From Azolla caroliniana (lineage: Eukaryota > Plantae > Polypodiophyta), in the NCBI GenBank assembly GCA_043228905.1, contig JBHGNT010000008.1:3658001-3722000 (forward strand): 64,000 nucleotides of DNA, written 5' to 3'. Shown here in pieces: positions 1,849 to 63,297 of the stretch. Within the stretch, counting starts at the first letter, position 1. Every line of letters starts with the position of its first letter. A program made the translations under genes and the position numbers. The notes under the pieces were generated by a model. That model saw only the letters and a program-made list of their open reading frames with translations. It had not been told where the DNA came from and did no database searches.

Positions 1849-1944
1849 AAAGCAAAAAGCAAATGTATGGGATTGAAATTGAAAAATCGGAAAGCAGAAT
1901 TGAAGAGCGAAGAGAAAACAAGAACAGGAAAAAAAAACCAAAAA

Positions 1945-12860: not shown

Positions 12861-13458
12861 TTATCCCTATGAATATTTTTTCTTTCAGCTTCTAGGACAA
12901 AGGTTTTAGAATTAGAGCTTCAGTTTCCTAATCAGTGAATCCGGAGAATTTCCGCTTCTAGAAACAAGATTACTGGTTGTGAATTAAAGTTTCTTTTTCT
13001 GAGATTTCAGGATTAGGGGCTTTGCTCTGTCTGAGTATTAGTTTTTCCTTTCTCAGCTTAGGTGATTAAGATTTTTTCCTCAGGTTTTGAGATTTGGGTT
13101 ATTATTTTTTCGGGTATTTCAGTTTCTAGAGTAAAGCTACATGATTTAGATTTCTTTCTCCTGCTAAAAGTTGAAATTTTGGTTCTAGAACAAGGTTATA
13201 GGGCTTGGATTGACCCTTTCCTTAAATTAGGGTTTTTTTTCCTTGAGATTTTCAGCTTCTCGAACAAAATAAATATATGTTTTTTTGGCTTGACATCACA
13301 AAACCCTGATTTAGAGCATGAGAGGGCCTATGAAAAAGTCACAGCCTTTGGATTGATCTCTTCATAACAGCCTTAATTTAGGGTTTCTGTTAATTGTTTT
13401 CTAGCTTTTAGGGCAGAGTATACGTACTTCATCTATATAGAGTTTGCTCCATCTTGAG

Positions 13459-25200: not shown

Positions 25201-25390
25201 AAAGAGGTGTACATTTCTCTCTTTATCTTTGCTTGATTGATACATATGCTTATTTGTTGGCATAAATTATTCCCCTGATTTAAATGGGAAATAGGAGACA
25301 TTGCGGAAAGCTGATGAGATTTTCGGACCGGACAACAAAGATCTGTTTTCTACGTTTCAAGCTCTTCTTGGTCGTCGTGGTGTCATATGA
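22276..25390 (+). CDS. At4g15545/NAIP-like coiled-coil protein; join(22276..22533,23359..23427,23542..23604,23960..24008,24160..24255,24370..24525,24974..25019,25128..25206,25295..25390)
   Basis: N-terminus LPSDPYEQLDVARKITSLA, KKLTRDVAKLETFKRTLMQSL, a Ser-rich middle and C-terminal RIDGKQFFRQARIRLSYDQFNAFLSIIKELNAHRETKEETLRKADEIFGPDNKDL all match this family. Exons join in frame; intron 7 needs a GC donor. Confidence 0.88.
22570..22915 (+). repeat. Intronic minisatellite, ~57-62 bp units (about 5.5 copies, partly as a 119-bp dimer)
   Basis: Repeats of gagtagaatccaatatatgcatacatacgtctctaatatttttatctgattgctgtagatttttagtt. Confidence 0.85.
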
Positions 25391-28300
25391 AGAGGTATTC
25401 AAAATAGAGATTGTCTTCAGAACTACTGAAATATCTCATTGTTATTACTGTGTTCGATTATCCGCAGTTCGGTTCACTGATCCTCTTCTATCTTGAAATT
25501 TATTCATTAGCTCATGGAATAGAATCTGGCATTCATTCCTGAATCCTCCATGTAAATTTGATTAATTTGTAATCTCATTTCATTTCATGTTGATCCTAAA
25601 CATGTTCATGAATTCTCTATGTAAAACATCATCCAATTCATTCATTATCCATATACATATATATGATTCATTGAATAATCTATCTTTGGGTTATAAGTTA
25701 ATATAACACAACTTGTATTGCATGTGCTAATCTTGCTAATATAAGATGAAAATTAAATGCCTTGTATTGCCATATAATCTTGTGAGTGCACTAATGGTCC
25801 TAAATCTTCAGTATTCTAGGACTTTATAATAGCCGGTCAATGGAGGAAACTTACATTTAGGTTAACGTTTAAACTTTTAATTCATTTTCAATTGATAATG
25901 GAGTTCCTCCATTGGCATAGATCATCACTACAACCATGATTGCGACTTTGATCTCGCAGAGACATGAAGTTAACTTGTAAGTGACAAACTATACATTGGA
26001 TGAATACACAAGCAAAGCAATCCATCTTTTACTGTGTAATGTTGTGATTCATTTTATGTGCGTCAATGTTTTGTATAAGGCTTGGTGCAATATAGTTCTT
26101 AGATCAATCATGTCTTTTGCAAAACAAGCATATACTAAACTAAAACACATATACCGTATTGAATGAGGAACTTCTCCTAAAGCGCATATGGTGGAATTTT
26201 TTACGTCAATCAGAAGTCATCGATTGTTAAGGTCCAATTCAAGAGTAATAGTTAATTCGTGTGGAATCTAGAGTAATTTCATGATTGTGTCAAACCTTGA
26301 AGTTGCAATACTCTTGATTCGTCGAGCACTCACCCACCATATAGGAGCTTTGGCAATTGAAGCAATTAAGCTTTGGCCATGGAGTGTGTTTTGAGTACAT
26401 GCCATCATCCACCAGCTCCATAAAGTGTGACACCACCTCTTCAGATATTTATACTCGTACTCATCTTTCCTTTTGTCTTCGGTGTAAGATTGGCGCCCCT
26501 TTTCTTCACTCAAGCCTAAGCATCAATGGAGGACCTAGGATGTAAGTATAAAATGAGAGTAGTTAATCTCATTGGCAAGAAAGGAGTATCTTTGTTGGAA
26601 TGTTGTTGAGACACAAATGGTGCCACCAAGCTCTTCCTAACAATAACTAACAATAACGGTCTAGTGGCTACTGATGTAGTGTTCAATTTGCTCATAAGAA
26701 TGCCCTTGCACCACAAAATTTGAGATCATCTTACTGATCTAGGTGGACTTGTAATCATTGACATTCCCTAATCTAAATGACAATTAAGGTGTTTGTTGCA
26801 TCTATACTACCAAGTTGGCCAATAACTAGATTTTGTAACACATTATATAGGTGTTATGGCTTCGAACAAGATGGAATGGAAGAATAGCATAAGAAAAGAA
26901 GAAAAAAAAACAAGAGGCCAATGTAATTATATTAACAAGAAGAACAATATTGCAAGAATACGTCAAAGAATGTCAATGAACCAATATGTGTCTTCAATGA
27001 CAACACTATCTTCTTATATAGGTAGCTTGTGTTTGGAAAATAAGGGAGTCTTATCTTGTAAGAATGTATAGAATTATTGTAAGAAAACTCTATTGAATAC
27101 TAAAAGTCAATCCAATCATCATTAATACTGATGACAACAAAGATATTGTCCCAATGTTTGATTTGACCATCAAGCTCTGGATGATAGTTTGAAGGGAGAT
27201 TACAAACAATTTGGAGGAGTCCATGCTACATATATTTCCAAAATCTAGAGATGAATTTCAGCCCTCAATCATTAAGAAGGTCACGTGGAAGACCATGATG
27301 CCTAAATACTTCATGCATATCTAGATCTTTTGTGTTTTGACTATTGATAATCTTTTTGCATGGGATGTTGTCTGTCATTGGGGAATGACATCCCCCAATC
27401 TCTTGGTTAGCCCATCAAAAGGAAGGCAGCCCCTCGAAACTTGGTAGTTACCCTTGGAATTGCAACACTCCAAGGTATGAGTCATGTTAATCCCTTTGAG
27501 AAAATGTGATTCAATAGCTTTGTTAGAGGACTAGATTCGTAGTTGTAATGTATGTTTTTAGTAAAAGAAACTTTGGTATTGACCATATGGTTGATTGTAA
27601 GCCTTACCAGTTTAAGACAATCAATGGAAACCTATCGCTTTAGATTTCATTATTGATCTTCCAACTTTCAAAGGTTTTTATGTTATTCTTACTCAATAGA
27701 GTATCAATTTATTAGGATGACATAAAGTGTAATTGAATGTGTGTGCCTAAATGTGCATAAGTGCAAGTAATCTATTTTATGTAGGGAGAGTACGTTTAAG
27801 TGTATGTGCACAATTATACATGTGTGTTTAAGTAAATATAAATGTGTAAAGTGTATGAATATGCTTCGAGTTTGTATTAAATTTTTGTGTATATGCGCTT
27901 GAAATGTGTATGTGTTTTTGTATGTGTATGGAAATAATTTATGATGTATATGTGAGTAGGTTTGAGAAGTGATGTAGGTGTAAATGTAAAAGTGTGTTTA
28001 TGTTGGTGAATATGTGTACAAGGAGGGTTATTTGGGGAAATGAAAAGAGTTTAGATTTGTGGGTAAGGCCATAATAATATTCTTTTTCCCTTTTGTGAAG
28101 TGTAAAAGAAGGATTGAAGGCTCGTGATGTAGATGTGATGTGGCGGATGATGTCAACTATTGGTCTGACGGTGTGTCGTGGCAGTAGACAACAACAATGT
28201 TAGCAATGAGTGTGGTGGCATAGCAGAGCTTGAGGAAGCTCCTCAACTCATGAGCTTTCCTTTTTATTTATTTATTTACTAAATTACAATTTTAAAATTT

Positions 28301-30289: not shown

Positions 30290-31839
30290 CCGCATTAGGT
30301 GCATGAGGTGACGTTTGAGAGTTAGGCATGTGAACTTGTATGCACCATGTAAATGGTATTTGCAAGGGCCAAATATCGGTGAAGGAATTATTGTTGAGAA
30401 TCAAGCTCAACTTGGTCTAGTGTGTGAACTCACCTTGAGAATGAATAGACACTCCAACGGTCAAGAGTCACCATTATGTCACCACTTTGTATTCTAGCAT
30501 TTAGTATGAGTCACAGAATCATATTCTATGACACATAACTTATGAGCTTTCACATTCCCCATGCTCCATGAGTCTTGTAGTTAATGAAGAGAGAGGGTGA
30601 CTATATAAAGGACTCTCCTCTCACCTTGTATCATGTTGAGTCTTTCTCCTTTGTTAATATACTTTTACCTTGCGTATTCTCTGTGTCTTATTCCTTGTCT
30701 CTCTCACTCACTCTCTCTCTCTCTCTCTCATACACACACATAACTCATATATCTCTTCCGCTTCACAAGAATCCATCTCTTGATTCTTTACATGGTATCA
30801 GAGTGATTTGGTAGTTTGATCTAGCCCATTCGCCTCATCGTGATCGTGTGTTGTGCTCCACGCCGACGACCAAGAACCGGCTCATCGCTATCGTAGCTTC
30901 ACTACATAGCTCGCATTCGAAGAGAGAAGAAGAAGAAGAAGAATCAACATAATGAATACTCAAATGGGGAGCGCTCTCCCTACCGAGAAGTTGGATTGAA
31001 ACAACTTCGCATCTTGGGAGTACAAGATGCACCAATACCTTGTCGAACAAGGCTATTGGAGTTACATCAAAGGAGCGCACGAAGACTGGCCCATCGACAC
31101 GACTCCCGGATACGCGACATGGGAGCAAGCCGCAAGCTACAAGCCCCGTGATGTATTGTTTGGCGACATGTGTTCACGACCACATGCTCGGTTACATTCG
31201 AGAAGCCAAGACACCGAAGGAAGCGTGGGAAAATTTACGAAAGATTTTCGCCGCCAACATGACCGCGAGGAAGCTTCAACTCCGCCAAGAGTTGAACAAC
31301 ATTCAATAAAGGGACATATCCATCACGACATACACCTTGAAGATCAAGGAGCTTTGCGACTCGCTCGGCTCAATAAGCGTAAGTATCGATGATGATGAGA
31401 TGGTGCAAATATGCCTCGGCGGCCTCGCACGACGGTTCAACCCGATGCGAACCGCCGTTCTAGCAAGGGAGAAATCTCCCTCCTTCTTCGAGCTCCAATC
31501 AATGCTATTGGTCAAAGAAAATCACGTGCGTACAAGGAGCAATGAGTCGGAAGGTCACATGCTCTACACACACTCGAATGGAAGAAGAGGACACAGACGA
31601 GCGAGAGGCCGATTCGGCCAAGGACAAGGTGGATGAGGTCCGACCTATGACAACAACTCCCAATTTCGACCGCAAAACGGAAGCCAACGAGGAACCTTCG
31701 CAAGAAGGGGGAGCTTCCACTCCTGCCTGAGCTGTCAAAACACAACCGAATGCGGATATTGCGGAAAGCTCGGCCACCACGAAGGAGAGTGCCGAAAGAA
31801 GATGCGCGAAACGACTTCCACAAGCCGAGAACTCACGAA

Positions 31840-32018
31840 TTACGCACACAATTCCGACTACGAAGAGTATAGCGGAATGTACAGGCACAACTCTGACTAC
31901 GAAGATCGTGGCGGAATGTATGCACATAACTCCGACCGTGGCGAAATGTACGGGCACAACTCCGACTACAAAGATCGTGGCGGAATGTATGCACACAACT
32001 CCGACCGTGTCGGAATGT
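31840..32018 (+). repeat. Coding tandem repeat (39/30-nt units, YAHNSDYEDRGGM / YAHNSDRGEM) between gag and protease of Copia-1
   Basis: Visible in ORF 31802-32155; the same array is at 58940-59150. Confidence 0.85.
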
Positions 32019-32796
32019 TCATGATGAAACATAGAGCAAACTCTATGTCGGCCTCTACCTCAACTAGTGCCTCCGGTCCAGAAGACGTATGGTTCGTCGA
32101 TTCCGGTGCCTCGAAGCATATGACATCGCATCAAGAATGGTTCCGAGAACTTTGAGAGCCGGACTGACCCAGCTATGTCGAAACCGGAGACGACACTATG
32201 CACCCGATTCGGCACATCGGCAATGTTCCGTTTGGAAAAGAAGGTGATCGGATGTGTCGTGACTCTTGAGTAGGAAGCAGAGAGAGAGCGATGGCGATAG
32301 AGATAACGATAACGATAGAGATGGCGAGAGCGGTAGAGATAGCGATAGTGATAGCAAAAGAGAGTGAAAGAGGGAGAGAGTGCGAGAGAGAGAAAAGTAT
32401 AAGTGAGAGATAAGAAATGGGAATGCGATTATTATTATGAGAAAGAAGATTACAAGGAGTAGGCTAAGGGCTAAAGACTGGTGTTGAACCGAATGAGTTG
32501 TGATGAGTGTATGGACTCTTATTTATAGGCCCTTATGGAGTATTCTAGAATGTTCTAGAATATTTTAGATATTTATGAATAATAATAATAATAAATATAA
32601 TCATGAAATATTCAAGAACATTCTAGAATAATCTAGAATGTTCTAAATATCTCGTAATAACTAAACATATAATTATTATGGTTACATCTCACATATGTTA
32701 TTACAATGGTTAAAGTACAATATGTAAACCAAGAGGTTATGGGTTCGATTCCTGGTTCGCCAAGATGAATGTCATGATAAGCCAAGATGTATGTCT

Positions 32797-35700
32797 TCAT
32801 GACATTATCCCCCCTTTTCGATGACGAGTTGCACGAGTCGGAAGAAAAGAGTTCAGACTTGGTTTATGAGGATATTGGTTGTGAAATGCAACAACCATAT
32901 CGGAGGCATTGGCAAGATGTTCGGCAGGCTCCCATGTTCGATCATTAGGTGTATAGCCTAACCAATCAACCAAGTAGTATAGTTTGTTGCGAATGATCTT
33001 GGAGTCGAGGATAGCGGCAACCTCATATTCAGAGCCATTGGAAACGTCAATTGGAGGTGGGGGAGGTGTAACACGACCCGGAATAGAGCTCGTTGTGTAG
33101 GGCTCCAAAAGTGAAACATGGAAGACCGGGTGAAGACGCATATGAGGAGGAAGATCAAGACGAAATGTCACATCATTGATCTTACCACTTATGACATATG
33201 GGCCAAAACGTTGATAATCCAATTTGTAGCAAGGTCGGTTCGTTTTAATGCTACCTTGTAAAAGCCATACACGATCGCCTACTTGAAATGTAGTTGATGA
33301 ATCACGCCGATGACGGTCAACAATCTTCTTTTGAGTGTTTTGGGCTTCACATAAATGATGCAAAAGCATATCCTGAACTTCTTGGAGTCGAGTGAGCCGA
33401 TCTTCAGCAGCTGGGTTTTTTGGGAGTTCAGGATGTTCAAGCATCGTCCAACGAGGATGGTACCCAATGTTTGCAAAAAATGGGGAATATCCAGTAGAAG
33501 AATGCTCGGAGTTGTTATAAGCAAATTCTGCCAAAGGTAGTAAATCCACCCAATCATCTTGTTGATAGTTGACAAAACAACGTAGATATTGCTCGACTGT
33601 TTGGTTGGTGCGCTCACTCTGCCCATTAGTCTCTGGATGGTAGCCGGAAGAGAGTTTACAAGAAGTATGTAAGAGTTTGAACATGTGCCGCCAAAATTTC
33701 GAGATGAATTGGGGACCCCGATCACTGATAATATCATCCGGAAGACCATGATGGCGAAACACCTCCTGCATGAGTAAATCAACTGTCTCTTGACTAGTAA
33801 TGGTCTTTGTGCATGGAAGGAAATGTGCCATCTTCGTAAAACGATCGACAACCGTGAGAATCGAATCAAATCCCTTGGAAGGTGGAAGATCCGTAATAAA
33901 GTCCAAGGAAATAGATTTCCATGGGCTCTCCGGAATAGGCATTGGCTGTAATAAGCCATATGGATGACGTCGAGGCTTTTTTGATCGGCAACATGTATCA
34001 CAGCTACAAACATAATCCGTAACAAAATGGCGAAGCCGTGGCCACCAATATCGGCGAGAAATCAACTCAAAAGTCTTGTGGATGCCGAAGTGTCCTGCCA
34101 TTGGTGTGTCATGACATTGTTGCATGACTTTGAGTCGAGAAGGACCGTCAGGCACATACAAGAGAGTTTGTCGAAAAAGTAACCCATCATGCCAACTAAA
34201 CTGGGTGTAGTCTAGACGAGGATTTTGAGTTTGGGAGCTAGATGCACGATTTGGGATAATATGGCTCAAAACCTCTTGGGCGAACGCAACAGTCGCAATC
34301 TGCTCACGAATGGAATCAAGAAGCCTTGAATCTCCCGGTGTGTTGATGGTATGCATTGCCATTATTCGTAGACGATCAGGACCTAAGAGGATTTGCTTTT
34401 GGCTTTCAAATGCGGCCTCTCCAGGTTGAAGTTCCATATACGAACGTCTAGATAAAGCATCTGCTTTTCCTTGTTGCATCCCAGGGCGATATAGAATTAC
34501 AAAATCGAAACGAGTTAAGAACTGCGCCCAACGAGCTTGTCGTCGATTCAAGACTCGAGCACTTTGAAAGTATGTTAGATTTTTATGATCATTGTAGACA
34601 ATAATCTGCTGAGAAGAACCCTCCAGAAAATGACGCCATTGTTGAAAAGAATCCACAATGGCAAGAAGCTCTTTGTCGTGAATCTCATAGTTGATTTCTG
34701 CGGCTTCAAATTTTCGTGAGTGAAAAGCCACCGGGTGCAGTTCACCATCATCACCAATTTGGGATAGTACACTTCCGAGTGCGAAATCCGATGCATCAGC
34801 TTCAAGTATAAAGCGCCTCATTGGATCGACATGGATTAAGATTGGTGCGGATGTAAATGCTTGCTTTAAACCCTCAAATGCAGAGTTCGCATCTATACTC
34901 CATACAAATGATCGATTCTTGTGCGTCAGTTGAGTGAGGGGCAACACAATTTTTGAATAATCTTTGATGAACTTGCGATAAAAGTTTGCGAACCCCAAAA
35001 AACATTGCACATCTCGCACGGACTGTGGTGTTTGCCAATCCAAAATTGTTTGAACCTTTGATGGATCCATAGAGATGCCATTTGAAGAGACTATGTACCC
35101 CAAAAACTCCACTTGACATTGGTCGAAACTACACTTCTCCAATTTTGCATAGAGACCATACTCTCGTAGCCGTTGCAAAACTTGGCGAACATGTATATCA
35201 TGTTCTTCTTGAGTTTTTGAGTAGATCAAGATATCATCCAGGTAAACAATGATGAAGATATCGAGGAAGTCTCGAAAAATATCATTCGCCATATGTTGGA
35301 AGACTGCTGGTGCATTCGTGAGGCCAAAAGGCATCACTGTGTACTCAAAATGACCATAGCGAGTGCGGAACGCCGTCTTCCATTCATCCCCAGGACGAAT
35401 TCGAACAAGGTTGTAGGCACCTCGAAGATCTAACTTCGTGAAATACTTTGCTTCACTGAGGCGTTCTAGAAGGCTTGAGATCAATGGGAGAGCATATCGG
35501 TTTCTAACGGTCACTTTATTCAAGCCTCGATAATCCACGACCATACGAAGCGTACCATCTTTCTTCTTAACGAAAAAGATGGGTGCACCAGCAGGAGATT
35601 TTGAATGTTGGATAAAACCATTTGCCAAGTTCTCATTGATATATTCTCGAAGAACCTCTAACTCCGTGGGCGAAAGATTATAAATTGGTCCCCATGGAGG

Positions 35701-36441
35701 CTCTTTTCCTGGCTGCAAATCAATTGGGCAATCATATGGTCGATGCTCTGGTAGTCTATTAGCCTTCACCTTATCGAACACATCGGAGAATTCTATGTAC
35801 TTCTTTGGTAGTTGGACCCCCAATTCTTGTGAGCTAGATGAGGGAGTTGCTAAAACCGCAAATATCATCATGTCTTCCTTTCTTCCATCCTCTCGTAATT
35901 GATGTATAGAGATTGTTGAAATTGTGGGGGATCCTAGATCCTTAGTTGAAGCTTCAAGAGACTTGGATTGTACGGTGACCTCTTCAATAGTTCTTTTTCT
36001 CCAATCAATGGTTGGGTTATGTAACTCAAACCAAGGAAGACCAAGAACTAGAGAGTGCTCCGGACTACTAATGATGTTAAATGAGATGACACTAGCCAAA
36101 TTACCTAGGACTACACGAATTGGTTCAGACTCTTCGACTATATCTCTTGATGCTATAGGGCGACCATCGATGACTCCTACAACTACTGGGTTTGGGAGTT
36201 TTTTCAAGATGATGTTTTGAGTCAATGCAAACTCGCGATCCATGAAACAAGAATTGGCTCCGGAATCTAGGAGGGCAGAGGCTAGGGCGCGATGACCTGT
36301 AGATGTGCTAAGCTCGACTTGTGCAGAAAAAACTCTACTAACTTGATTTGATGAAATGGAACCACAACTAGGTACTGACTCTACATAACTAGGATGGTCC
36401 AACCAAATGGCTCCTATTTTGGCCGGACTTATTCGTTTAAC
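32797..36441 (-). CDS. pol: Chromovirus Pol (protease-RT-RNase H-integrase-chromodomain), in the -1 frame relative to gag
   Basis: ALLDSGA, YLDD, ADASD..ELLAI, HHCC plus DDE integrase, GPY motif and chromodomain EYEVAAILDS..YLVDWLGY..RTWEP. No ATG start is needed if expressed by frameshift. Confidence 0.94.
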   Translation of the reverse strand, partial: VKRISPAKIGAIWLDHPSYVESVPSCGSISSNQVSRVFSAQVELSTSTGHRALASALLDSGANSCFMDREFALTQNIILKKLPNPVVVGVIDGRPIASRDIVEESEPIRVVLGNLASVISFNIISSPEHSLVLGLPWFELHNPTIDWRKRTIEEVTVQSKSLEASTKDLGSPTISTISIHQLREDGRKEDMMIFAVLATPSSSSQELGVQLPKKYIEFSDVFDKVKANRLPEHRPYDCPIDLQPGKEPPWGPIYNLSPTELEVLREYINENLANGFIQHSKSPAGAPIFFVKKKDGTLRMVVDYRGLNKVTVRNRYALPLISSLLERLSEAKYFTKLDLRGAYNLVRIRPGDEWKTAFRTRYGHFEYTVMPFGLTNAPAVFQHMANDIFRDFLDIFIIVYLDDILIYSKTQEEHDIHVRQVLQRLREYGLYAKLEKCSFDQCQVEFLGYIVSSNGISMDPSKVQTILDWQTPQSVRDVQCFLGFANFYRKFIKDYSKIVLPLTQLTHKNRSFVWSIDANSAFEGLKQAFTSAPILIHVDPMRRFILEADASDFALGSVLSQIGDDGELHPVAFHSRKFEAAEINYEIHDKELLAIVDSFQQWRHFLEGSSQQIIVYNDHKNLTYFQSARVLNRRQARWAQFLTRFDFVILYRPGMQQGKADALSRRSYMELQPGEAAFESQKQILLGPDRLRIMAMHTINTPGDSRLLDSIREQIATVAFAQEVLSHIIPNRASSSQTQNPRLDYTQFSWHDGLLFRQTLLYVPDGPSRLKVMQQCHDTPMAGHFGIHKTFELISRRYWWPRLRHFVTDYVCSCDTCCRSKKPRRHPYGLLQPMPIPESPWKSISLDFITDLPPSKGFDSILTVVDRFTKMAHFLPCTKTITSQETVDLLMQEVFRHHGLPDDIISDRGPQFISKFWRHMFKLLHTSCKLSSGYHPETNGQSERTNQTVEQYLRCFVNYQQDDWVDLLPLAEFAYNNSEHSSTGYSPFFANIGYHPRWTMLEHPELPKNPAAEDRLTRLQEVQDMLLHHLCEAQNTQKKIVDRHRRDSSTTFQVGDRVWLLQGSIKTNRPCYKLDYQRFGPYVISGKINDVTFRLDLPPHMRLHPVFHVSLLEPYTTSSIPGRVTPPPPPIDVSNGSEYEVAAILDSKIIRNKLYYLVDWLGYTPNDRTWEPAEHLANASDMVVAFHNQYPHKPSLNSFLPTRATRHRKGGIMS
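36390..36441 (-). other. -1 programmed ribosomal frameshift signal (G UUA AAC + 6-nt spacer + H-type pseudoknot)
   Basis: Minus strand reads GTTAAAC gaataa GTCCGGCCAAA aTAGGAgcca TTTGGTTGGAC ca TCCTA: 11-bp stem 1 and 5-bp stem 2. Confidence 0.8.
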
Positions 36442-37556
36442 ACATCCTCTAATTGGCTCAAGACATCAAATCTATTCTCATGGCATGGGCTATTAGGCTT
36501 AGTACTTAAGTTATTAGAAGTGATAGTAGAACTTGATGTAGGGTTGTCATGTGCACTTACTTGGTAAACTTGACGCCTGGGTTTATGTGGACAATTCACA
36601 GCTATATGTCCTGGACCACCACAGTAGAGGCATAGGCGATGCGCCCGACGTCGTTGTTTCTCAGCATCTGATAAGGGCCCTCGACGTTGTGTCGACTCTA
36701 TTTCCATCGGAGTGGGACCATCCCTCGTAACGGGTCTAGAACCTTGTGGCGGTGTGGCGACTATAGAAGCGTATGTCTGTTCCGGTTGGCGGCGTAACAT
36801 TTGTTGACGTTCAGAACGTCGCTCAAATAGGCGATTATCACATCGCACAGCTCGGCTAATAGCTTCAATAAGAGACTTTGGATCTTCATGGAAAGTAAGA
36901 AGAAGATCTTTGACATCGTTACGCAAACCCTGACGGAATTGATCCATTAAGGCTGCCTCATCCCAAGGGATGTCGCATGCCAAGAGACGGAAATCTGCGG
37001 CATAAGCTGAAGCGGGACGATCTCCTTGTCGGAGTCTTCGAATCTTGTTTATTGCAGTCCTAGTGCTATCCGTATCTCCAAAACTAGCTTGAAACTCCTT
37101 AACGAATGCCTCGAAATCCTCTAGTAATGGTGATTTCTTCTCAAGAAGTGGTGCAAACCATGCTAACGCTGTACCGCTTAGCAAGGTTCCTATTAATCCC
37201 ACACGGGCAGCATCAGTTGGATACCGATTGGGATGTAACTGAATCACCAAACGAACTTGATTCAGGAAACCTCGAAAGAGAGATCTGGTACCATCAAACT
37301 TGGCAGGGAGGCTAATCTTTGGTTCCCTTGGGGAGTTTTGAACCCCCGCCGCTTGTTCTCGTAATGTTAATATAGTAGCCTCAAGTTGATGAACCCGTTG
37401 TGATAACTCCTCATATTGATGAGCTTTCTCAGTACTGACTTGTTGAAGATCCCCGAGTAGCCTTTGATTTTCTTGCTCTAATGCCACAAACTTAGTGGTG
37501 ATCATATCGAGCTCCGAAAGGACACGCATATACTCTTGCTTGCTGACCGACTCCAT
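36429..37556 (-). CDS. gag: Chromovirus Gag (coiled coil, capsid, CCHC zinc knuckle)
   Basis: 375-aa ORF with LPAKFDG, LRQG..ASAYAADF, PTPMEI and CLYCGGPGHIAVNC. Confidence 0.92.
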   Translation of the reverse strand: MESVSKQEYMRVLSELDMITTKFVALEQENQRLLGDLQQVSTEKAHQYEELSQRVHQLEATILTLREQAAGVQNSPREPKISLPAKFDGTRSLFRGFLNQVRLVIQLHPNRYPTDAARVGLIGTLLSGTALAWFAPLLEKKSPLLEDFEAFVKEFQASFGDTDSTRTAINKIRRLRQGDRPASAYAADFRLLACDIPWDEAALMDQFRQGLRNDVKDLLLTFHEDPKSLIEAISRAVRCDNRLFERRSERQQMLRRQPEQTYASIVATPPQGSRPVTRDGPTPMEIESTQRRGPLSDAEKQRRRAHRLCLYCGGPGHIAVNCPHKPRRQVYQVSAHDNPTSSSTITSNNLSTKPNSPCHENRFDVLSQLEDVLNE

Positions 37557-37627
37557 AACCGCGGGGGAAAAAGAAAGAAGGATAAAGAAGAAAGCTTGCT
37601 AGGGTTATTGGAGGAAGGGAAAAGAAT

Positions 37628-37638
37628 ATTCGGTTCAA
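37628..37638 (-). other. Self-priming primer-binding site (TTGAACCGAAT) complementary to the predicted transcript 5' end at 37870-37880
   Basis: Lies 2 nt from the 5' LTR end, does not start with TGG, and is a perfect 11-nt complement of ATTCGGTTCAA, which begins 33 nt after the TATA box. Confidence 0.85.
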
Positions 37639-37905
37639 ACTGTCGTGACTCTTGAGTAGGAAGCAGAGAGAGAGCGATGGCGATAGAGATAACGATAACG
37701 ATAGAGATGGCGAGAGCGGTAGAGATAGCGATAGTGATAGCAAAAGAGAGTGAAAGAGGGAGAGAGTGCGAGAGAGAGAAAAGTATAAGTGAGAGATAAG
37801 AAATGGGAATGCGATTATTATTATGAGAAAGAAGATTACAAGGAGTAGGCTAAGGGCTAAAGACTGGTGTTGAACCGAATGAGTTGTGATGAGTGTATGG
37901 ACTCT

Positions 37906-38030
37906 TATTTATAGGCCCTTATGGAGTATTCTAGAATGTTCTAGAATATTTTAGATATTTATGAATAATAATAATAATAAATATAATCATGAAATATTCA
38001 AGAACATTCTAGAATAATCTAGAATGTTCT
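37906..38030 (-). promoter_or_regulatory. LTR promoter: TATA box (TATAAATA, 37906-37913) with two heat-shock-element arrays (37928-37947, 37996-38030); duplicated in the 3' LTR (32520-32644)
   Basis: aTTCtaGAAtgTTCtaGAAt and aTTCaaGAAcaTTCtaGAAtaaTCtaGAAtgTTCt fit alternating nGAAn/nTTCn pentamers. Confidence 0.78.
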
Positions 38031-38082
38031 AAATATCTCGTAATAACTAAACATATAATTATTATGATTACATCTCACATAT

Positions 38083-38148
38083 GTTATTACAATGGTTAAA
38101 GTACAATATGTAAACCAAGAGGTTATGGGTTCGATTCCTGGTTCGCCA
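38083..38148 (+). other. Degenerate tRNA/SINE-like segment in LTR U3 with Pol III B box (also 32697-32762)
   Basis: TACAATGGTTAA (weak A box/D-loop-like), GGTTCGATTCC (canonical B box, 38128-38138), ending in CGCCA. Cloverleaf stems are poor. Confidence 0.5.
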
Positions 38149-40313
38149 AGATGAATGTCATGATAAGCCAAGATGTATGTCTTCATGACAGGATGCAGAT
38201 GGATTTACAAAGTGAAGTACAACGCCGACGGTTCTGTCAACCGCTACAAAGTGAAACTCGTAGCGAAAGGCTATGCACAAACGCACGGAGTTGACTATGA
38301 AGAGACCTTTGCCTCGGTGGCAAAGATGACGACGGTATGAACTGTAATTGCGCTTGCTGCTGTGAAAGGGTGGCACCTCCATCAAATGGACGTCAAGAAC
38401 GCCTTTCTACAAGGCGAATTAGAAGAGGTGTACATGATCCAACCACCCAGCTTGAACTCGAGCACCCATCCGAAAGCTGTTTGCCGATTCAAGAAGCCAC
38501 TCTACGGCCTCAAGCAAGCACCGTGTGCTTGGCATTTGAAGATAATGCAATATCTTCATCAAATCGGCTTCTGTATGTCAAAATCGGACAACTCCCTCTA
38601 CATACGAAGCGATTCCGCAAGTCCGATCGTCATCATCTTATATGTGGATGACCTAGTCATTGGAGGTGCGCATCTCGTCGAAATCAATAAGGTCAAATCC
38701 CTCCTTTCCGACAAGTTCGAGATGATGGACATGAAGGAACTCCACTACTTCCTCGGCATCGAGGTAATTCGGACTCCGACCGGAATCATGATTTCTCAAC
38801 GGCACTACATCCTCAACTTGTTATACAAGTTTGGTATGGCTAAGTGCAAATCCGTAGCAACCCCACTCGATCGCAATCTCAAACTAGATGCGAACTCTGG
38901 CAGCAAAGCGTGTGAGCCGTCTCAGTATCGGCAACTCATCGGGAGTCTCATCTACCTCACGATCACTCGACCCGATCTCAGTTATCCGGTCGGTCTCCTT
39001 AGTCAATTCATGCAAACACCGCGTGATACTCACTTGGATTGCGCTAAGCGAGTTCTACGGTACGTGAGCGGCACAATGGATTGCGGCATCCTCTACAAGA
39101 CCGCGATGCCAATATGCCTCGAGGGGTACACAGACGCCGATTGGGCTGGCTACAAAGCCGATAGAAGATCAACCTCCGGATTTGTTTTCTCCCTCGGCAG
39201 CGGAGCAATATCCTGGAGTAATAAGAAGTAGTCTACCGTCGCTCTTTCAAGTACGGAGGCGGAATACAGGGGCGTAGCCGTAGCTGCGTGTGAAGCCGTA
39301 TGGCTCAAGAGGATTTTGAATGATCTGGGCGTACCCATCAAGGATCTGACTTCCCTTTACTGCGACAACATGAGCAATATCTATTTGGCTCGGAACCCGG
39401 TGTTCCACGTGCGGACAAAGCACATCGACGTGCACTATCACTTCATCCGAGAGTGCGTTCTAGTTGGCGATGTCGACCTACAACACATTAGCACAAATCT
39501 TCAAACGACCGACATCTTCACTAAAGACTTAGGAGCCTACAAGTTGTGGCAATTCATGACCGATCTCGGATTGACGATCCTTGACCTGCCAAGCTTGAGG
39601 GGGAGTACTAAAGACATTACGCAATAACGCATGGATTCTACAGGCCGCACACACTACGCAAGAACATGTGGATTACGTAACCACGCAATGAAGCCGCGAA
39701 GAGCCGATCTACCGCGCAAAGCCGCGAAGAAATACGCAAGCTGAAGCACAGACTTCGCAACTACGCACAACGCAAGCTGGAGCACGAATTCCGTAACTCC
39801 GCATAAATGCGAGTCGACACGAGTCGACGCAGACTCCAGAACGTGAGTTGAAGCGGATTTCGGATACCGTCTGAAACCGACCTGACTTGAGCTTGAGGGG
39901 GCGTGTTAAGAATCAAGCTCAACTTGGTCTAGTGTGCGAACTCACCTTGAGAGTGAATAGACACTCCAACGGTCAAGAGTCACCATTATGTCACCTCTTT
40001 GTATTCTAGCATTTAGTATGAGTCATAGAATCATATTCTATGACACATAACTTATGAGCTTTCACATTCCCCATGCTCCATGAGTCTTGTAGTTAATGAA
40101 GAGAGAGGGTGACTATATAAAGCACTCTCCTCTCACCTTGTATCATGTTGAGTCTTTCTCCTTTGTTAATATACTTTTACCTTGCGTATTCTCTGTGTCT
40201 TATTCCTTGTCTCTCTCACTCACTCACACACACACTCTCTCTCTCATACACACACATAACTCATATATCTCTTCCGCTTCACAAGAATCCATCTCTTGAT
40301 TCTTTACAATTAT

Positions 40314-41835: not shown

Positions 41836-43665
41836 CTTGAACAGTCATTGCAGGATACTTCTACTCGACTTTCTCATTCATCAGAAGTGCAGGTGCAGTC
41901 TTTTAAGCCCAAACAATGTTTATGAAAGGTCTAGAATCCAAACAGATGCATGCATACATCTCTAAATTTTTTATCTGATTGCTTTAGATTTGTAGTTCCT
42001 TTGCATAATTTGTATTCATTTTGTATAATTCAAAAGGAATCTGGGCGGATTAGCAAAGAAACGTTGCCCGACATTGTGCAAGGGCATTTTTCTTATCCAT
42101 CAAACCCTTTCCATCGCTAACTTCTGTTATTCATGTCAGAGAAATTGCTGAAGTAGTTTATGTTTGTAAACAGAACCAAATCAACGCAAATTTGTCAGAA
42201 GCTAAAAGAGTAGTTTTGGCAATCGGTTTTTGTTAACTTTCCCAATCGTGTTTTTCAGATTCATCCACTAGAATCAATTTGACAAATTCTTGTAGATTCA
42301 TGACGATAAAAATATCTGTGGATTCATGTCTGTTTTTCTTTATGGAACCATGAGGGTCTACTCAGTTAGAGAACTATGTGAGACTGAGGTTTCTCTTACA
42401 TATACATGTGCAATGTCCATTAGTATCTGCACATTCAGATTCATCCCCTAGAATCAAATTGACAAATTATGGAACAGGGTCTACAACAGTTTCACCCCTG
42501 CATGAAGATGAGTATTTCGTTAGTGAAGGTTGTCCTGGAGTATGGCTTCTTTTTTGATTCAATGGATGTTTCTTTTGTGCTCTTTTCTTGTTCTTGCTTC
42601 CTGTGTTTTAATTCTGTATTAACCCCATTGAAAACCTAACAGAGTTCTCCGAAAAGCAATCAAGCTCAGGATCACCCTCGCAAAATTCTGCAACGTATTC
42701 ACCTAGATGGCATTCTACAAGGGACATTACTCGTTCATTACCATCTTCTCAATCTACGATCCAAAATTCAACAGTGACAAGTTCACCACCTAACACTGGT
42801 ATATTTTAGAGCTCAAAAGAGCTCTGTCTTTTCAAACAGGATGTCCTTAATGAGTCATTCATGAGGAACTCAACCTAAAACAGCCTCCTCGAAATTTTCA
42901 TTGATCTGTGAACTTTTTTGGGGCGATCTTCTTGATCTAGATCCTTAAGTTGCACTTATGGGCATGCATTTAGAAATATCCTGATGAGGATTAGCTTTAG
43001 AATATGATCATTAAATTGGAAAATGCTTTATAAATCACCTCTCAATTTGAAGAGTTAATATGAAAGTGCTACCTACATGTATTTACATGCACAGCTTTGC
43101 CCATGCGATATCAACCCCTCAATCCAAAAACCGCATTAAAGTTTGAAAACACTTAAATCCTAATGCAGACATGTATCATTTTCATATGATGGTTTGAAGT
43201 TAGATACTTTCTTTTCCATTGGCTTCAGCCATTCCAGAAGACATGCCACAGATTGATGGAAAACAGTTCTTCCGGCAAGCCAGGTGAGAAAACATGCTTA
43301 CTCTTTTCCCTACTCATACATGCATGACATAAAGAAAAAACTATATTGTTAGGTTATATGCCCTTACCATGTGAATGGATCTCTGATGCAGGATCCAGTT
43401 ATCATATGAACAATTTAAAGCATTTCTGAGTGTAATCAGAGAGCTTAATGCTCATCTCAAGACCAAAGAGGTGTCCATCTGTCCTATAGATGAAAGTTTC
43501 TCTCTTTATCTTTGCTTGATTGATACATATGCTTATTAGTTGGCATAATTATTCCCCGGATTTAAATGGGAAATAGGAGACATTGCGGAAAGTTGATGAG
43601 ATTTTTGGACCCAACAACAAAGATCGGTTTTCTATGTTTCAAGCTCTTCTTGGTCTTCGTGGTGT
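41836..43665 (+). pseudogene. Copy B of the At4g15545-like gene (exon-1 tail, partial intron 1, exons 5-9)
   Basis: Homology to 22477 onward. Exons 2-4 are deleted near 42255, the exon-5 acceptor is CAG>CAC, and the stop codon is lost at the junction with copy C. Confidence 0.85.
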
Positions 43666-46600
43666 TCAGCAAAACCATGATGATGAAACTGAGATAAAAT
43701 GTTCTATGAACTTCTCCTGGTTATTTCGTGTGCAGCAAAACCATGATAATGAAAAGCCTTTAGGATTCTCTTTGGACTCCACAGGTAAGAACTCTTCTCA
43801 ATCCAAACAAATCTCTGTAGATTCATGTCTGTTTTTCTTTATGGAACCATGAGGGTCCACTTAGTTAGAGAACTATGTGAGACTGAGGTTTCTCTTACAT
43901 ATACATGTGGAATGTCCATTAGTATCTGTAGATTCAGATTCATCCACTAGAATCAAATTGACAAATTCTTGTAGATTCATGACGATAAAAATCTCTGTGG
44001 ATTCATGTCTGTTTTTCCTTATGGAACCATGAGGGTCTACTTAGTTAAAGTACTATGTGAGACTGAGGCTTCTCGTACATATACATGTGCAATGTCCACT
44101 AGTATCTGCACATTCAGATTCATCCACTAGAATCAAATTGACAAATTATGGATTAGGGTCTACAACAGTTTCACCCCTGCATGAAGATGAGTATTTCGCT
44201 AACGAAGATTGTCCTGCACTAGGTTTTTTTTTTGATTCAATGGATGTTTCTTTTGTGCTCTTTTCTTGTTCTTGCTTTCTAAGTTTTAATTCTGTATTAA
44301 CCCCATTGCAATCCTAACAGAGCTCCTGAAAAAGCAATCAAGCACAGGATCACCCTCGCAAAACTCTGCATCGGATTCACCTAGATGGCATTCTACAAGT
44401 AACATTACTCGTTCATTACCATCTTCTCAATCGACGAGCCTAAATTCAACAGTGACAAGTTCACCACCTAAAACTGGTATATTTTGGACCTTTAAAAGAG
44501 CTATGTCTTTTCAAACAGGATATCCTTAATGAGTCATTCATGAGGAACTCAACCTGAAACAGCCTCCTCGGAATTTTCATTGATCTGTGAACTTTTAGGA
44601 GGCTATCCTGTTGATCTAGATCCTTATGTTGCACTTATGGCCATCCATTTAGACAAATCCTGATGAGGATTAGCATTAGAATATGATCATTAAATTTGAA
44701 AATGCTTTATAAATCTCCCGTCAATTTGAACAGTTCATAAGAAAGTGCTACCTGCATGTATTTATAAGCACAGCTTTGCTCATAATTTATCGAGATGCAA
44801 CCCCTCAATCCAAAAACCCTATTTAAGTTCCAAGACACTTAAATCCTAATGCAGACATATATCATTTTCATATGATGGTTTGAAGTTAGATACTTTCTTT
44901 TCCATTGGCTTTAGCCATTCCAGGAGACATGCCATGCATTGATGGAAAACAGTTCTTCCGGCAAGCCAGGTGAGAGAACATGCTTACTCTTTTCCCTACT
45001 CATACATGCATGACATAAAAAAAAAACTATATTGTTAGGTTGTATGCCCTTACCATGTGAATGGATGTCTGATGCAGGATCCAGTTATCATATGATCAAT
45101 TTAATGCATTTCTGAGCATCATCAAAGAACTTATGCTCATCGCAAGACCAAAGAGGTGTGCATTTGGCCTATACATGAAATTTTCTCTCTTTATCTTTGC
45201 TTGATTGATACATATGCTTATTTTTTGGCATAATTGTTCCGTTGATTTAAATGGGAAATAGGAGATATTGCGGAAAGCTGATGAGATTTTTGGACCCAAC
45301 AACAAAGATCTGTTTTGTATGTTTGAAGCTCTTCTTGGTCATCGTGGCGTAATATGAAGAGTTATTCAAAATAGAGCTTGGCTTCAGAACTGCTGAAATA
45401 TCTCATCGTTATCACTGTGTTCGATTATATGCCCAGTTCGGTCCACTGATCCTCTTCTATCCTGAAATTTATTCATTAGCTCATGGAATATAATCTGGCA
45501 TTCATTTCTGAATTCTCGCTGTAAATTTGATTAATTTATAACCTCATTTCATTTCATAATGTTGTGATCCTAAACATGTTCTGAATTCTCTATGTAAAAC
45601 ATCATCCAATTCATTCATTATCCATATACATATATATGATTCATTGAATAATCTATCTTTGGGTTATAAGTTAATATAACACAACTTGTATTGCATGTGT
45701 TAATCTTGCTAAAATAAGATGAAAACTAAATACCTTGTATTGTCGTATAATCTTGTGAGTGAACTAATGGTCCTAAATCTTGAGTATTTAGGACTTCCGT
45801 TCGGGTTAATGTTTAAACTTTTAATTCATTTTCAATTGATAATGGAGTTCCTCCATTGGTAGAGATCATTATTACAATCATGATTGCGGCTTTGATTTCG
45901 CAGAGACATGAAGTTAACTTGTAAGTGACGAACTATACAATGGATGAATCCAAAAGCAATCCATCTTTTATTGTGTAATGTTGTGATTCATTTTATGTAC
46001 ATCAATGTTTTGTATAAGACTCGGTGTATTATAGTTCTTAGATTAATCATGTATTGTGCAAAACAAGCATATCCTAAATTAAAGCTCATGTAGCATATTG
46101 AATGAGGATCTTCTCCTAAAGCTCATATTGCGGAATTTTTTACGTCAATAAGAAGTCATTGATTGGTAAGATCCAATTCTAGGGTAGGAGTTAATTTGCA
46201 TGGAATCTATAGTAATTTCATGAGTGTGTCAAGCCTTGAAGTTACAATACTCTTGATTCATTGAGCACTAGCTCACCATATAGGAACTTTGGCAATTGAA
46301 GCAATTCAGTTTTGGCCATGGAGGTACACTGATAGTGCACCTCCATGGAGTGTGTTTTGGGTACATGCCATCATCCACCAGCTCCATAAAGTGGGCTCCA
46401 TAAAGTGGGATTCCACCTCTTCATGATGTTTCTACTAATACTCATCTTTTCTTTTGTCTTCAATGTAAGCTTGGCTCCCTTTTTCTCCATTCAAGCCTAA
46501 GCATGAATGTAAGACCTATGATGTAAGTATAAAATGAGAGTAACTAATCTCATTGGGGAGAAAGGAGTATCTTTGTTGGAATGTTGTTGAGACACAAATG

Positions 46601-46945: not shown

Positions 46946-48831
46946 TATACATGTTGTGGGTCTAATCTACTCGTGTCATCCAACTATTTATTTGTACTAT
47001 TGGATTTCTGTCCCTGTGTTAAGTGCAAGTCTTAGGGCCGGCAACTTTTCGTACTTGATCGGCTTGTGACACCCTTGTGTTTCCATTCCTACATAACCAC
47101 GATTCCTTGACCCGATTACCCTAAGAGTAATCGAAGGTGTTATCTCCGAAGAAGAGATAACACAATTTGGCACGCCCGGTTCACGTTGTGAAGCACAACG
47201 AACAGTGTAGGAGGAACAACCCCCGTCGCTAGTTCGGTGCCCCCTCGCACCAAGCGTTCTCGGCTACCATCTAGCTACGCCGAGCCCGCCGAGGAAAATT
47301 TTGACTTAGTGCTCACGCAACAATCATCGCTAGAGCCAGTAGAGTCGTCTCCCTCTCTGTTAATTGCACTAGACACCCAATCAAACTTGGGCCTTGACCT
47401 ATTGCGCCTCCAAGCCCTCCCGAAGTTACCCAAACCGAGTGTAACCCATTTCCGGCGTTACCAGAAGACCCAGACTTCGACACCATGCCCTATCCATATC
47501 CCCGTTATACAGATGGCCCTGATGCGGAATCCCACATCCATTCTTTTGTGTCAACTTAGCAAGCCAACCATTCTACGCAGCATCTCACCGTTGCAGAGGT
47601 TGATGCGTCCAAAATTGCAGAATTCACATTGTCCCTCGATGGACCCGTTGCTCGATGGTATTCCCGTTGCGATCTTGGGGAATTTGTTACGTTTTAGGAC
47701 ATTCACACTCAATTCCTCGAACTTTTTTACTACGAGATACCTAAGCGGGAACTGCTCCGCTAGTTCTACGCTATAATACAAGAACCGCATTAGACGGTTT
47801 CTCAGTTCACAATCCGATTCTAGGATCTCTATCGGCAGCTCGCTCAAGATGTGTTCGCAAATAATTTAAAAGACGCGTTCCTTGCCGGCCTCCGGGAGCC
47901 CCTCCGAACAACTCTCACCTTGATAGATTTTTCCCAATAGACCATTGAGCAAGTGGTCGCTTGTGTCCTCGCAATGGATAGAGCCCAACATAGTACTTCT
48001 TTTTTGATGGGCTCACTCCAACACGCCTTGCCGACCCATGAAGAAACCCAGTTTCGGGAGGCTCTCCAATGCACAACGTGCACAAAATCCGGCCACTCGG
48101 CCGTGGATTGTCCTCTCCGCCCACACTGCCCGATCTACCATTCTCGGGTGCATACGGTCGAATAATGTGAGTACAATATGCTTAATCGTACAACCTTTGG
48201 TTCTGTACAACAGATTGAGCCATACCACGATCGCCCTCAATAGGATGATCGTTCCTCACCTCGGAATAGGGACGCCGAACAACCTTGGTACTGACCCAAG
48301 CAGGATTGCTATCGCTAGGATAACCAGTACTGACTTGAGGAGCCGTGTTATTGGCTAGATAATCGATCTTGACCCGAGGATGACCGCTACCAACATCGTG
48401 ACGACCGCTATCGCCTTGACGACGACTATTACTACTACAATTACGACCGGGAAGACTACTTATGAACCAAGGTATTAACAGTATGATCGGCGACTCCCTA
48501 TTAAAATTGCGGTTCCCCGCCCTCAGACAATCGACGACCCTCAGACAATCAACGTTGCGACCCTTCGCGCCTCGATAACTGACGACCCCCCCCCCCCTCC
48601 TCCCCCCCCAAAAAAACCAGAGCATTACACCACTCAGTGCCCGACAAATGATCGCTAAAAAGCCCCTGCAGTAAATATCATTATGGTGGACATCCAACAA
48701 GTCATCACCCGGAGTAAGGCTCAAAAAACCCAATGGGATATACAAGACGAAGTTTAGCAAGCCGCCAAGCAATGGATAGAGATAGCCAATGTTGCCAACA
48801 CCGAGAGAATGCATACCGAGATGAAGGATAT

Positions 48832-62953: not shown

Positions 62954-63010
<57 letters not shown>

Positions 63011-63297
63011 CACACACACATAACTCACATCTCTTCTGCTTCACAAGAATCCATCTCTTGATTTTTTACAAACCGAATGAAGGAACCGGATTCGGATATG
63101 AAGAGGACCCGGATGAAATCCGGATGAGATCCGGAAACCGGATTGGATGGACCTGGTGAGAATCGGAAGATGGGACATATTTGTAAATATGTCAGAGTGA
63201 GCCCTCTGAGGCTAAATTTGTAAATAGCCTAAAAGACATATAGGTATAAATATGACTTAGGGCAATCACAGTAGTTGTTGTTGTATCATCGTTGTTC

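What the first reader, a model, noticed from the sequence alone, without database searches (positions are those of the whole stretch)
37906..38030. Two heat-shock-element arrays immediately upstream of the Gypsy LTR TATA box
Seen: four perfect alternating pentamers (TTC-GAA-TTC-GAA, 37928-37947) about 15 bp upstream of TATAAATA, and a seven-pentamer array with one imperfect unit (37996-38030), in both LTRs. Known: three or more alternating nGAAn units bind HSF trimers. Inference: heat-inducible transcription, and the 3' LTR could also drive heat-induced antisense read-out into the host Copia gag.
Basis: partly seen in the sequence, partly recalled or inferred. Interest (0 to 1): 0.75.

Follow-up and report, generated by a model that had tools for sequence, protein, structure and literature searches.

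The report
Heat-shock promoter in self-priming Gypsy LTR
A young jumping gene in a probably moss genome carries two heat-shock-factor-type motif arrays just ahead of its start signal, kept in the same place by related element families, so it likely switches on under heat or similar stress, although no expression data could be found.

Summary
Observation confirmed. Both LTRs of a young minus-strand Ty3/gypsy chromovirus (32255-38190; LTRs differ at 1 of 550 bases) carry a 4-unit perfect HSE 14 nt above TATAAATA and a 7-unit array; 0 of 20,000 shuffles give two such arrays. The TATA is independently supported: an 11-nt self-priming site 33 nt below it pairs with the PBS, and site and PBS co-vary across five families. 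Four families (RT 80% or more identical) keep HSE arrays in TATA register; an equally young sister family (RT 63%) has none in 19 of 19 loci. Cores change less than spacers, weakly for the four flagged units (p=0.086), clearly over seven (p=0.007, post hoc). Heat induction is inferred; no RNA data. Antisense read-out would enter an already broken Copia. Added here: a degenerate tRNA-like A/B-box unit lies antisense at the outer U3 end across these families. HSE-driven LTRs are known (ONSEN, flatworm Ty3). The scan had no note on this sequence but has noted tRNA-like units in other Gypsy elements.

The parts
32255..38190 (-). Full-length Ty3/gypsy chromovirus, 5,936 bp, TG...CA ends, 5-bp TSD GGATG
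37641..38190 (-). 5' LTR, 550 bp
   Evidence: one mismatch to the 3' LTR
32255..32804 (-). 3' LTR, 550 bp, with the same HSE arrays, TATA and tRNA-like unit
37928..37947 (.). Proximal HSE, four perfect alternating nGAAn units (copy at 32542-32561)
37996..38030 (.). Distal HSE, seven units with one imperfect; also a long palindrome (copy at 32610-32644)
37906..37913 (-). TATA box TATAAATA (copy at 32520-32527)
   Evidence: 32-34 nt above the self-priming site in all families
37870..37880 (-). Self-primer, 11 nt, predicted first bases of the transcript (predicted start 37880; 3' LTR equivalent 32494)
37628..37638 (-). Primer-binding site, exact complement of the self-primer
38083..38148 (+). Degenerate tRNA-like unit, antisense to the element: A-box-like stretch at 38091, B box at 38128-38138 (copy at 32697-32762)
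36429..37598 (-). gag reading frame (Retrotrans_gag, Ty3_capsid, weak CCHC), stop to stop
32797..36465 (-). pol reading frame (RT, RNase H, integrase, SH3, chromodomain), stop to stop
32805..32818 (-). Polypurine tract
30392..40308 (+). Host Ty1/copia copy that the element interrupts; LTRs 96.8% identical over 405 nt; integrase region missing; gag-protease region has stops

Best explanation
The U3 of this young self-priming Gypsy element holds two HSE arrays above a TATA box, and they likely bind host heat-shock-factor trimers, which would fire the TATA promoter under heat or similar protein-damaging stress at the one start site predicted to yield primer-bearing, replication-competent RNA. Shown: the motifs, their spacing, the primer/PBS complementarity and its co-variation, conservation across families, host HSF domains. 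Inferred: start site at 37880, HSF binding (each 4-unit run is a '4P' element), induction, and selection on the element to keep the proximal array in register with TATA while arrays grow by 10- and 20-bp duplications that preserve the GAA/TTC alternation. The enhancer looks like a swappable module in a fixed frame (tRNA-like boxes, enhancer, TATA, self-primer), since a sister family has the frame with RY-like repeats instead of HSEs.
For: Chance excluded. Start site: the PBS is complementary to 37880-37870; primer and PBS change together in five primer variants across families, always 32-34 nt below TATA; 13 of 91 examined PBS-pattern hits are rearranged copies joined at primer base 11. Conservation: among 63 anchored LTRs from the 80 long loci plus the window, lineage A keeps units U1-U4 perfect in 18-22 of 22 distinct promoters and lineage B keeps U3-U5 in 10-13 of 15; intact families at 80-88% RT identity carry arrays (15 of 21 non-G loci); 19 of 24 family-type metagenome hits carry a perfect run, while the only 3 of 96 others that do are family members by eye; one (L233) has six perfect units with different spacers. 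Tree changes per position: cores 2.33, spacers 3.62, linker 6.22 for U1-U4 (core<linker p=0.005; core<spacer p=0.086); the middle core base has no shared change in any of seven units. Tail-to-tail spacers take 11 values; head-to-head spacers are mostly TA. 667 HSE-15 nt-TATA sites in the genome against 2 for the reversed control. Ten HSF domain matches in the host; 9 of 25 small-HSP loci have a perfect run of 3 or more units, 4 of 25 have four. Precedent: ONSEN binds HSFA2 (PMC3907296); HSE mutation abolishes heat response of a flatworm Ty3 LTR (PMC12801592); heat shifts Tf2 to its primer-bearing start (PMC5341516).
Against: No RNA, reporter or binding data. Within lineage A spacers are about as constant as cores, the four-unit core-versus-spacer test is not significant, and the seven-unit test was chosen after looking; columns are not independent and 6 of 72 rows with indels were dropped. 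The arrays fold strongly as RNA (z -4.9; -5.6 to -7.4 in families A, E, F). Two flatworm Copia families with an HSE were not induced. In intact lineage B only one 4-unit run is perfect and family E has only a 3-unit perfect run far from TATA. The 667 count uses a pattern cut from this element, so it measures copy number, not function.
Confidence: 0.72

Rival explanations
1. The arrays bind HSFs, but the relevant signal is not heat: desiccation, oxidative or developmental HSF activity, or repression by class B HSFs, sets the element's timing.
For: HSEs do not specify which HSF binds (established knowledge, recalled). The host has ten HSF domain matches of untested class. The sister family carries RY-like repeats at the same place (4 hexamer hits, 61 of 5,000 shuffles reach this), which hints that these LTRs tune to various stress or maturation programmes.
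Against: 4-unit arrays were the strongest heat-responsive type in Brassicaceae LTRs (PMC5059998); the same spelling occurs at host small-HSP genes.
Confidence: 0.13
2. The arrays are selected as an RNA or DNA hairpin at the 3' end of the genomic RNA (packaging, strand transfer, termination) and only resemble HSEs.
For: The distal array is a long palindrome that mirrors spacers as well as cores; z -4.9; z -5.6 to -7.4 in families A, A2, E, F.
Against: HSE arrays are palindromic by nature. Lineage B keeps the array and register with weak folding (z -1.7 and -2.8). The proximal array is fixed relative to TATA, which points to a DNA-level promoter role. Rfam gives only sub-threshold miRNA-hairpin matches.
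Confidence: 0.08
3. The arrays are neutral expansions of a TTCTAGAA-containing 10-mer, carried along by descent.
For: Unit number varies in 10- and 20-bp steps among copies; the 10-mer with spacers CA/TA dominates; spacers are more conserved than the neighbouring linker (p=0.03).
Against: Arrays persist in four families whose LTRs otherwise align at about 70-80% or not at all; register to TATA is kept; cores change less than the linker (p=0.005); L233 keeps six cores with other spacers.
Confidence: 0.07
4. (First reader's add-on) The 3' LTR drives heat-induced antisense RNA into the host Copia gag, with a regulatory effect.
For: Geometry is right: the predicted 3' LTR start (32494, minus strand) points into the + strand Copia gag-protease region directly behind 32255.
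Against: No RNA data. The host copy lacks integrase and has 5-12 stops per frame over this region, so nothing functional is there to silence in cis; an effect on other Copia copies through small RNA is speculation. This is one insertion among hundreds.
Confidence: 0.1

Closest known systems
ONSEN/COPIA78, TERESTRA and COPIA37 of Brassicaceae (PMC3907296, PMC5059998; passages read)
   Same: Clusters of four or more nGAAn units in the LTR; promoter region poor in CG/CHG (1 CG, 0 CHG in 130 nt here, not significant for this copy, p=0.14; significant in families E, F and also HSE-less G).
   Different: ONSEN is Ty1/copia in seed plants and has binding and induction data. Brassicaceae elements gained their elements repeatedly at species-specific positions; here one TATA-anchored array is shared by a clade of families.
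HSE-bearing Ty3 families of Macrostomum lignano (PMC12801592; passages read)
   Same: Ty3/gypsy LTRs with canonical HSEs upstream of the start site.
   Different: Animal host; Mag, CsRN1 and Gmr1 clades, not chromoviruses; independently gained; experimentally shown.
Tcn1-type chromoviruses of mosses and club-mosses; Tf1/sushi group (PMC6317226, PMC2864245; passages read); Cryptococcus TCN3/TCN12 (10.1101/2025.05.19.654958; passages read)
   Same: Self-priming PBS, chromodomain with aromatic cage, about 6 kb, 5-bp TSD; TCN3 and TCN12 have putative HSEs and move at 37 C.
   Different: No HSE array in a plant Tcn1-type LTR turned up in searches. The first 400 nt shown for P. patens RLG1 and RLG2 transcripts do not resemble this LTR by eye.
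S. pombe Tf2 (PMC5341516; passages read)
   Same: Self-priming element whose replication needs RNA that starts at the primer; heat favours that start.
   Different: The Tf2 switch is attributed to nucleosome remodelling, not to an HSE array.
Helenus/Cassandra/Ajax TRIMp3 elements (PMC10886601; abstract, Results part 1 of 2, Discussion read)
   Same: tRNA-derived A and B boxes conserved inside LTRs.
   Different: Those are short non-autonomous elements thought to be Pol III driven. Here the unit is in autonomous coding elements with a Pol II TATA promoter and lies antisense, upstream of the enhancer. The paper also says that other Repbase LTRs contain tRNA-like parts.

Membership tests
HSF-driven heat-inducible LTR promoter (ONSEN type) | At least three, for 4P at least four, adjacent alternating nGAAn units in U3 | tested here: met
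   definition from PMC5059998
HSF-driven heat-inducible LTR promoter (ONSEN type) | Units lie upstream of a true TATA and start site | tested here: met
   self-primer co-variation places the predicted start 33 nt below TATA; no 5' end data
HSF-driven heat-inducible LTR promoter (ONSEN type) | Cores more constrained than spacers | tested here: inconclusive
   p=0.086 for U1-U4, p=0.007 for U0-U6 (post hoc)
HSF-driven heat-inducible LTR promoter (ONSEN type) | HSF binding and heat induction | not testable with these tools
   needs EMSA, ChIP, reporter or heat RNA-seq
Tcn1-type chromovirus (Tf1/sushi group) | Ty3/gypsy order RT-RH-INT with C-terminal chromodomain | tested here: met
Tcn1-type chromovirus (Tf1/sushi group) | Aromatic cage in the chromodomain | tested here: met
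   Y, W, Y read by eye; cage positions recalled
Tcn1-type chromovirus (Tf1/sushi group) | Self-priming PBS instead of tRNA PBS | tested here: met
   criterion of 10 or more complementary bases from PMC6317226
Tcn1-type chromovirus (Tf1/sushi group) | RT groups with reference Tcn1 elements | tested here: inconclusive
   groups with unnamed metagenome, fungal and vertebrate proteins away from a seed-plant outgroup, but no named Tcn1 reference was in the tree; quick tree of 25 of 61 rows
TRIMp3/Helenus | tRNA-derived A and B boxes in the LTR | tested here: met
TRIMp3/Helenus | Short, non-coding, non-autonomous element | tested here: not met
   5.9 kb with gag and pol frames
Functional tRNA gene | Folds as a cloverleaf and is called by tRNA finders | tested here: not met
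   ARAGORN 0 genes; no Rfam tRNA match at E up to 5

The most novel reading that the evidence does not exclude
These self-priming chromoviruses have a modular LTR in which an ancient antisense tRNA-derived A/B-box unit recruits TFIIIC as a portable chromatin barrier (or Pol III antisense promoter), shielding a swappable enhancer, HSEs in one clade and RY repeats in its sister, so that elements that land in silent chromatin can still fire at the exact primer-bearing start; hundreds of such cassettes would spread insulated heat-inducible promoters through the genome.
Probability: 0.2. Interest if true: 0.8.

Novelty: new variant of a known kind. Interest (0 to 1): 0.5.

Why it matters
HSE-driven LTRs have been validated in few systems (ONSEN and flatworm Ty3 families, by PMC12801592's own count). 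This would add a young, multi-copy chromovirus from a probable non-seed plant, where the array is a long-kept clade trait and not a recent gain. The self-primer gives the start site for free, and an HSE-less sister family in the same genome is a built-in control, so the test is cheap. At least 667 HSE-TATA cassettes could make nearby sequence heat-responsive. The conserved antisense tRNA-like boxes in autonomous elements are the less expected part and have no explanation yet.

Tried and rejected
Expression: the look-up of sequencing runs listed no RNA holder; laying four contig runs shows related LTR pieces in other samples but says nothing on level, strand or heat; no evidence either way. P. 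patens link: RLG2 is described as heat- and ABA-induced and RLG1 as heat-repressed, but the supplementary table gives RLG2 39-43 under heat against 37-38 (BCD) or 18-34 (BCDA, continuous light) in unstressed protonema, the transcript cells were cut at about 400 letters and the motifs were not found in the held text, so homology could not be shown; not used. The DNA search for LTR copies returned only 40 identical copies, useless for conservation, hence the PBS- and RT-based sampling. RT identities of 64-74% first seen for lineage B came from decayed copies; intact ones are 81-82%. Ten of 74 PBS-type loci had no primer anchor and one (L140) a false one; most are truncated or interrupted (L068 and L138 still show the array). 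In one search, five of 40 loci (L317, L319, L329, L333, L334) gave no usable LTR pair and L326 had no perfect run. A short Pol III RNA ending at a T-run beside the PPT was considered: four T follow in this family only, so it is not general. The T-arm stem of the tRNA-like unit is not kept, one A subfamily has a changed B box, and L216 and L233 gave no B-box match within 240-270 nt. Rfam miRNA matches are far below thresholds. The TSD was doubted because integrase is missing beside it; the deletion junction lies about 15 nt away, so the TSD stands. Earlier-findings look-ups by place and by sequence were empty.

Full report
Observation. The coordinates are right. 37928-37947 holds four perfect alternating pentamers and 37996-38030 seven with the fifth imperfect. 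The element is transcribed on the minus strand (gag 36429-37598, pol 32797-36465 with RT, RNase H, integrase and chromodomain), so TATAAATA at 37913-37906 lies 14 nt downstream of the proximal array. The LTRs (32255-32804, 37641-38190) differ at one base and are flanked by GGATG. No other perfect run of three or more units exists in the window; of 20,000 shuffles of the LTR, 2 give one 4-unit run and none gives two. The host genome is 523 Mb in 1,503 contigs. That it is a moss or other non-seed plant is my inference from the element type (PMC6317226, passages); I did not test it.

The TATA box is supported independently. There is no tRNA-type PBS; the 11 bases after the 5' LTR are the exact complement of LTR bases 37880-37870, the Tf1-type self-priming arrangement predicted for Tcn1 elements. 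In sister families primer and PBS change together (five variants, 11-12 nt) and the primer always lies 32-34 nt below a TATA. Of 91 PBS-pattern hits examined (of 264 in the genome), 13 are rearranged copies in which U3 and the first 11 bases of R are joined, in most cases to inverted U5, as expected of aberrant products of a primer-linked cDNA (inference). The start site is therefore predicted at 37880. In S. pombe Tf2 only RNA from the LTR start carries the primer and heat favours it (PMC5341516, passages), which gives a reason for tying a stress enhancer to this TATA.

Family. The window's subfamily is young: 40 of 40 scored hits are identical over 331 nt; 13 of 14 full-length copies with mapped ends have LTRs at least 99.6% identical and 12 of 14 show a 5-bp TSD. 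I sampled copies by PBS and by RT, not by HSE. Of 80 long PBS loci, 74 were PBS-type and 63 gave a valid primer anchor. Lineage A keeps units U1-U4 perfect in 21, 21, 22 and 18 of 22 distinct promoters; lineage B keeps the same register, with U3-U5 perfect in 13, 11 and 10 of 15. Among 40 RT-selected loci, families at 87-88% (E; long degenerate array), 81-82% (B; four units at -38) and 80% (F; four plus five units) RT identity carry arrays, and they form one clade with the window element (SH-aLRT 99). Family G (63%; LTR pairs 98-100% identical) has the same self-priming frame but no HSE in 19 of 19 loci; CATGCA repeats sit there instead (4 hits; 61 of 5,000 shuffles reach this; the RY label is recalled). 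A metagenome scan on TATA plus primer gave 120 loci (scan stopped at its limit): 19 of 24 family-type loci have a perfect run, 2 of the 5 without are cut off by contig ends, and the 3 of 96 others with a run are family members by eye. L233 has six perfect units with different spacers; L163 has the primer and PBS but no HSE.

Core versus spacer. On a tree built from the sequence downstream of the array (66 of 72 distinct promoters; 6 with indels dropped; the linker was part of the tree input), changes per position for U1-U4 are 2.33 (cores), 3.62 (spacers), 6.22 (linker to TATA): core<spacer p=0.086, core<linker p=0.005, spacer<linker p=0.03. Over U0-U6, chosen after looking, cores 2.57 and spacers 5.07, p=0.007; the middle base of the core has no shared change in any unit. 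Across 31 distinct perfect runs, GAA-nn-TTC spacers take 11 values and TTC-nn-GAA spacers are TA in 37 of 51, in line with the recalled aGAAn preference. Unit number varies in 10- and 20-bp steps, so expansion is the mechanism of growth, but it keeps alternation and the proximal register.

Host side. Ten HSF DNA-binding-domain matches. Of 25 small-HSP loci fetched (33 matches), 9 have a perfect run of three or more units within 1 kb upstream of the domain and 4 have four units, in similar spelling; by this measure the LTR equals the best host HSP promoters. The HSE-15 nt-TATA pattern occurs 667 times against 2 for the control, a copy count.

Against. No expression or binding data were available. 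The arrays fold strongly as RNA, though lineage B keeps them with weak folding. An HSE does not guarantee induction (two flatworm Copia families). CG/CHG scarcity, an ONSEN trait, is not significant for this copy and is also seen in HSE-less family G.

Antisense read-out. The 3' LTR points into the gag-protease region of a + strand Copia, but that copy is older (LTRs 96.8% identical), has lost its integrase region at a junction about 15 nt from the insertion, and has stops in all frames. Read-out is possible, consequence unlikely.

An added feature. At the outer end of U3, on the strand opposite to the element, lies a degenerate tRNA-like unit (38083-38148). A profile from 37 host-assembly tRNA genes scores it 20.9 bits; 36 of 72 promoters score 8 or more, all antisense; the best of 1,440 shuffles scores 5.6. 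The A-box-like TGG lies 36-37 nt before the B box in families A, B, E and F; family G keeps the B-box core with a TGG at 43 nt, though its profile score is only about 2 bits. It is not a working tRNA, its stems are not kept and no terminator is shared, so a DNA-level TFIIIC site is my preferred guess; pairing of the genomic RNA with tRNA loops is an untested alternative. Helenus elements have such boxes but are short and non-autonomous (PMC10886601; its supplements not seen). Searches listed nothing on such a unit in autonomous chromovirus LTRs, judged from listings; this library lacks most subscription journals. Earlier scan notes describe tRNA-like units in Gypsy elements or LTRs of other genomes (unchecked).

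Comparison and verdict. It works like ONSEN and the flatworm Ty3 families and parallels the putative HSEs of Cryptococcus TCN3/TCN12. Searches listed no HSE array in a moss or plant Tcn1-type LTR. It meets the structural criteria for a Tcn1-type chromovirus; tree placement with named references was not possible. It is not a TRIMp3. All papers were seen as passages or named sections, none whole; PMC2864245 reports no self-priming in the Selaginella element SM-Tcn1. Verdict: real, probably a functional stress promoter (0.72), a known strategy in a new lineage, with a modular LTR frame that makes it a variant worth testing. Interest 0.5.

Noticed in passing
window 38083-38148 (+) and 32697-32762 (+): Antisense tRNA-like unit with A- and B-box-like motifs at the outer U3 end, kept across related families.
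   Followed up: yes
L336-L354 (family G LTRs, 353 bp): Young self-priming sister family with CATGCA (RY-like) repeats where this clade has HSEs; in it the B-box core is enclosed by an inverted repeat of the LTR end.
   Followed up: partly
L043, L044, L047, L050, L053, L054, L056, L095, L103, L110, L122, L126, L132; also L098, L182, L199: Rearranged copies in which U3 plus the 11-nt primer is joined, mostly to inverted U5; 13 of 91 PBS-pattern hits, a frequent trace of aberrant self-primed reverse transcription.
   Followed up: partly
window about 32240-32254 and 38191 onward: Host Copia has an internal deletion of about 1.6 kb (integrase) joining protease to RT, with the Gypsy inserted about 15 nt from the junction; a fuller relative lies at about 57660-63070.
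   Followed up: partly
L163 (metagenome): Element-like sequence with the same 11-nt primer and matching PBS, TATA 31 nt upstream, but an unrelated U3 without HSE.
   Followed up: no
L216 and L233 (metagenome): Further promoter types of the clade: L233 has six perfect units with distinct spacers; L216 has a duplicated array one base out of the usual register.
   Followed up: partly
L262-L281 (G000 C9, about 17.9-18.26 Mb): Large cluster of small heat-shock protein genes, several with HSEs spelled much like the lineage B LTR array.
   Followed up: partly
L286-L294, L303-L305: Tandem arrays of tRNA-Lys, tRNA-Ile and tRNA-Arg genes with degenerate copies in the host genome.
   Followed up: no
window 48830-53876 (-): A second Copia family with LTR stretches 98% alike and GC about 0.53; no perfect HSE run in it.
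   Followed up: no
window 13441-16668 (+) and 5350-7068 (+): An LRR receptor-like kinase frame (1,075 aa), and a 572-aa frame without Pfam match.
   Followed up: no
window 1-1850, 23000-26300, 42000-46250: An AT-rich repeat family in several direct and inverted copies (85-97% alike), not classified.
   Followed up: no
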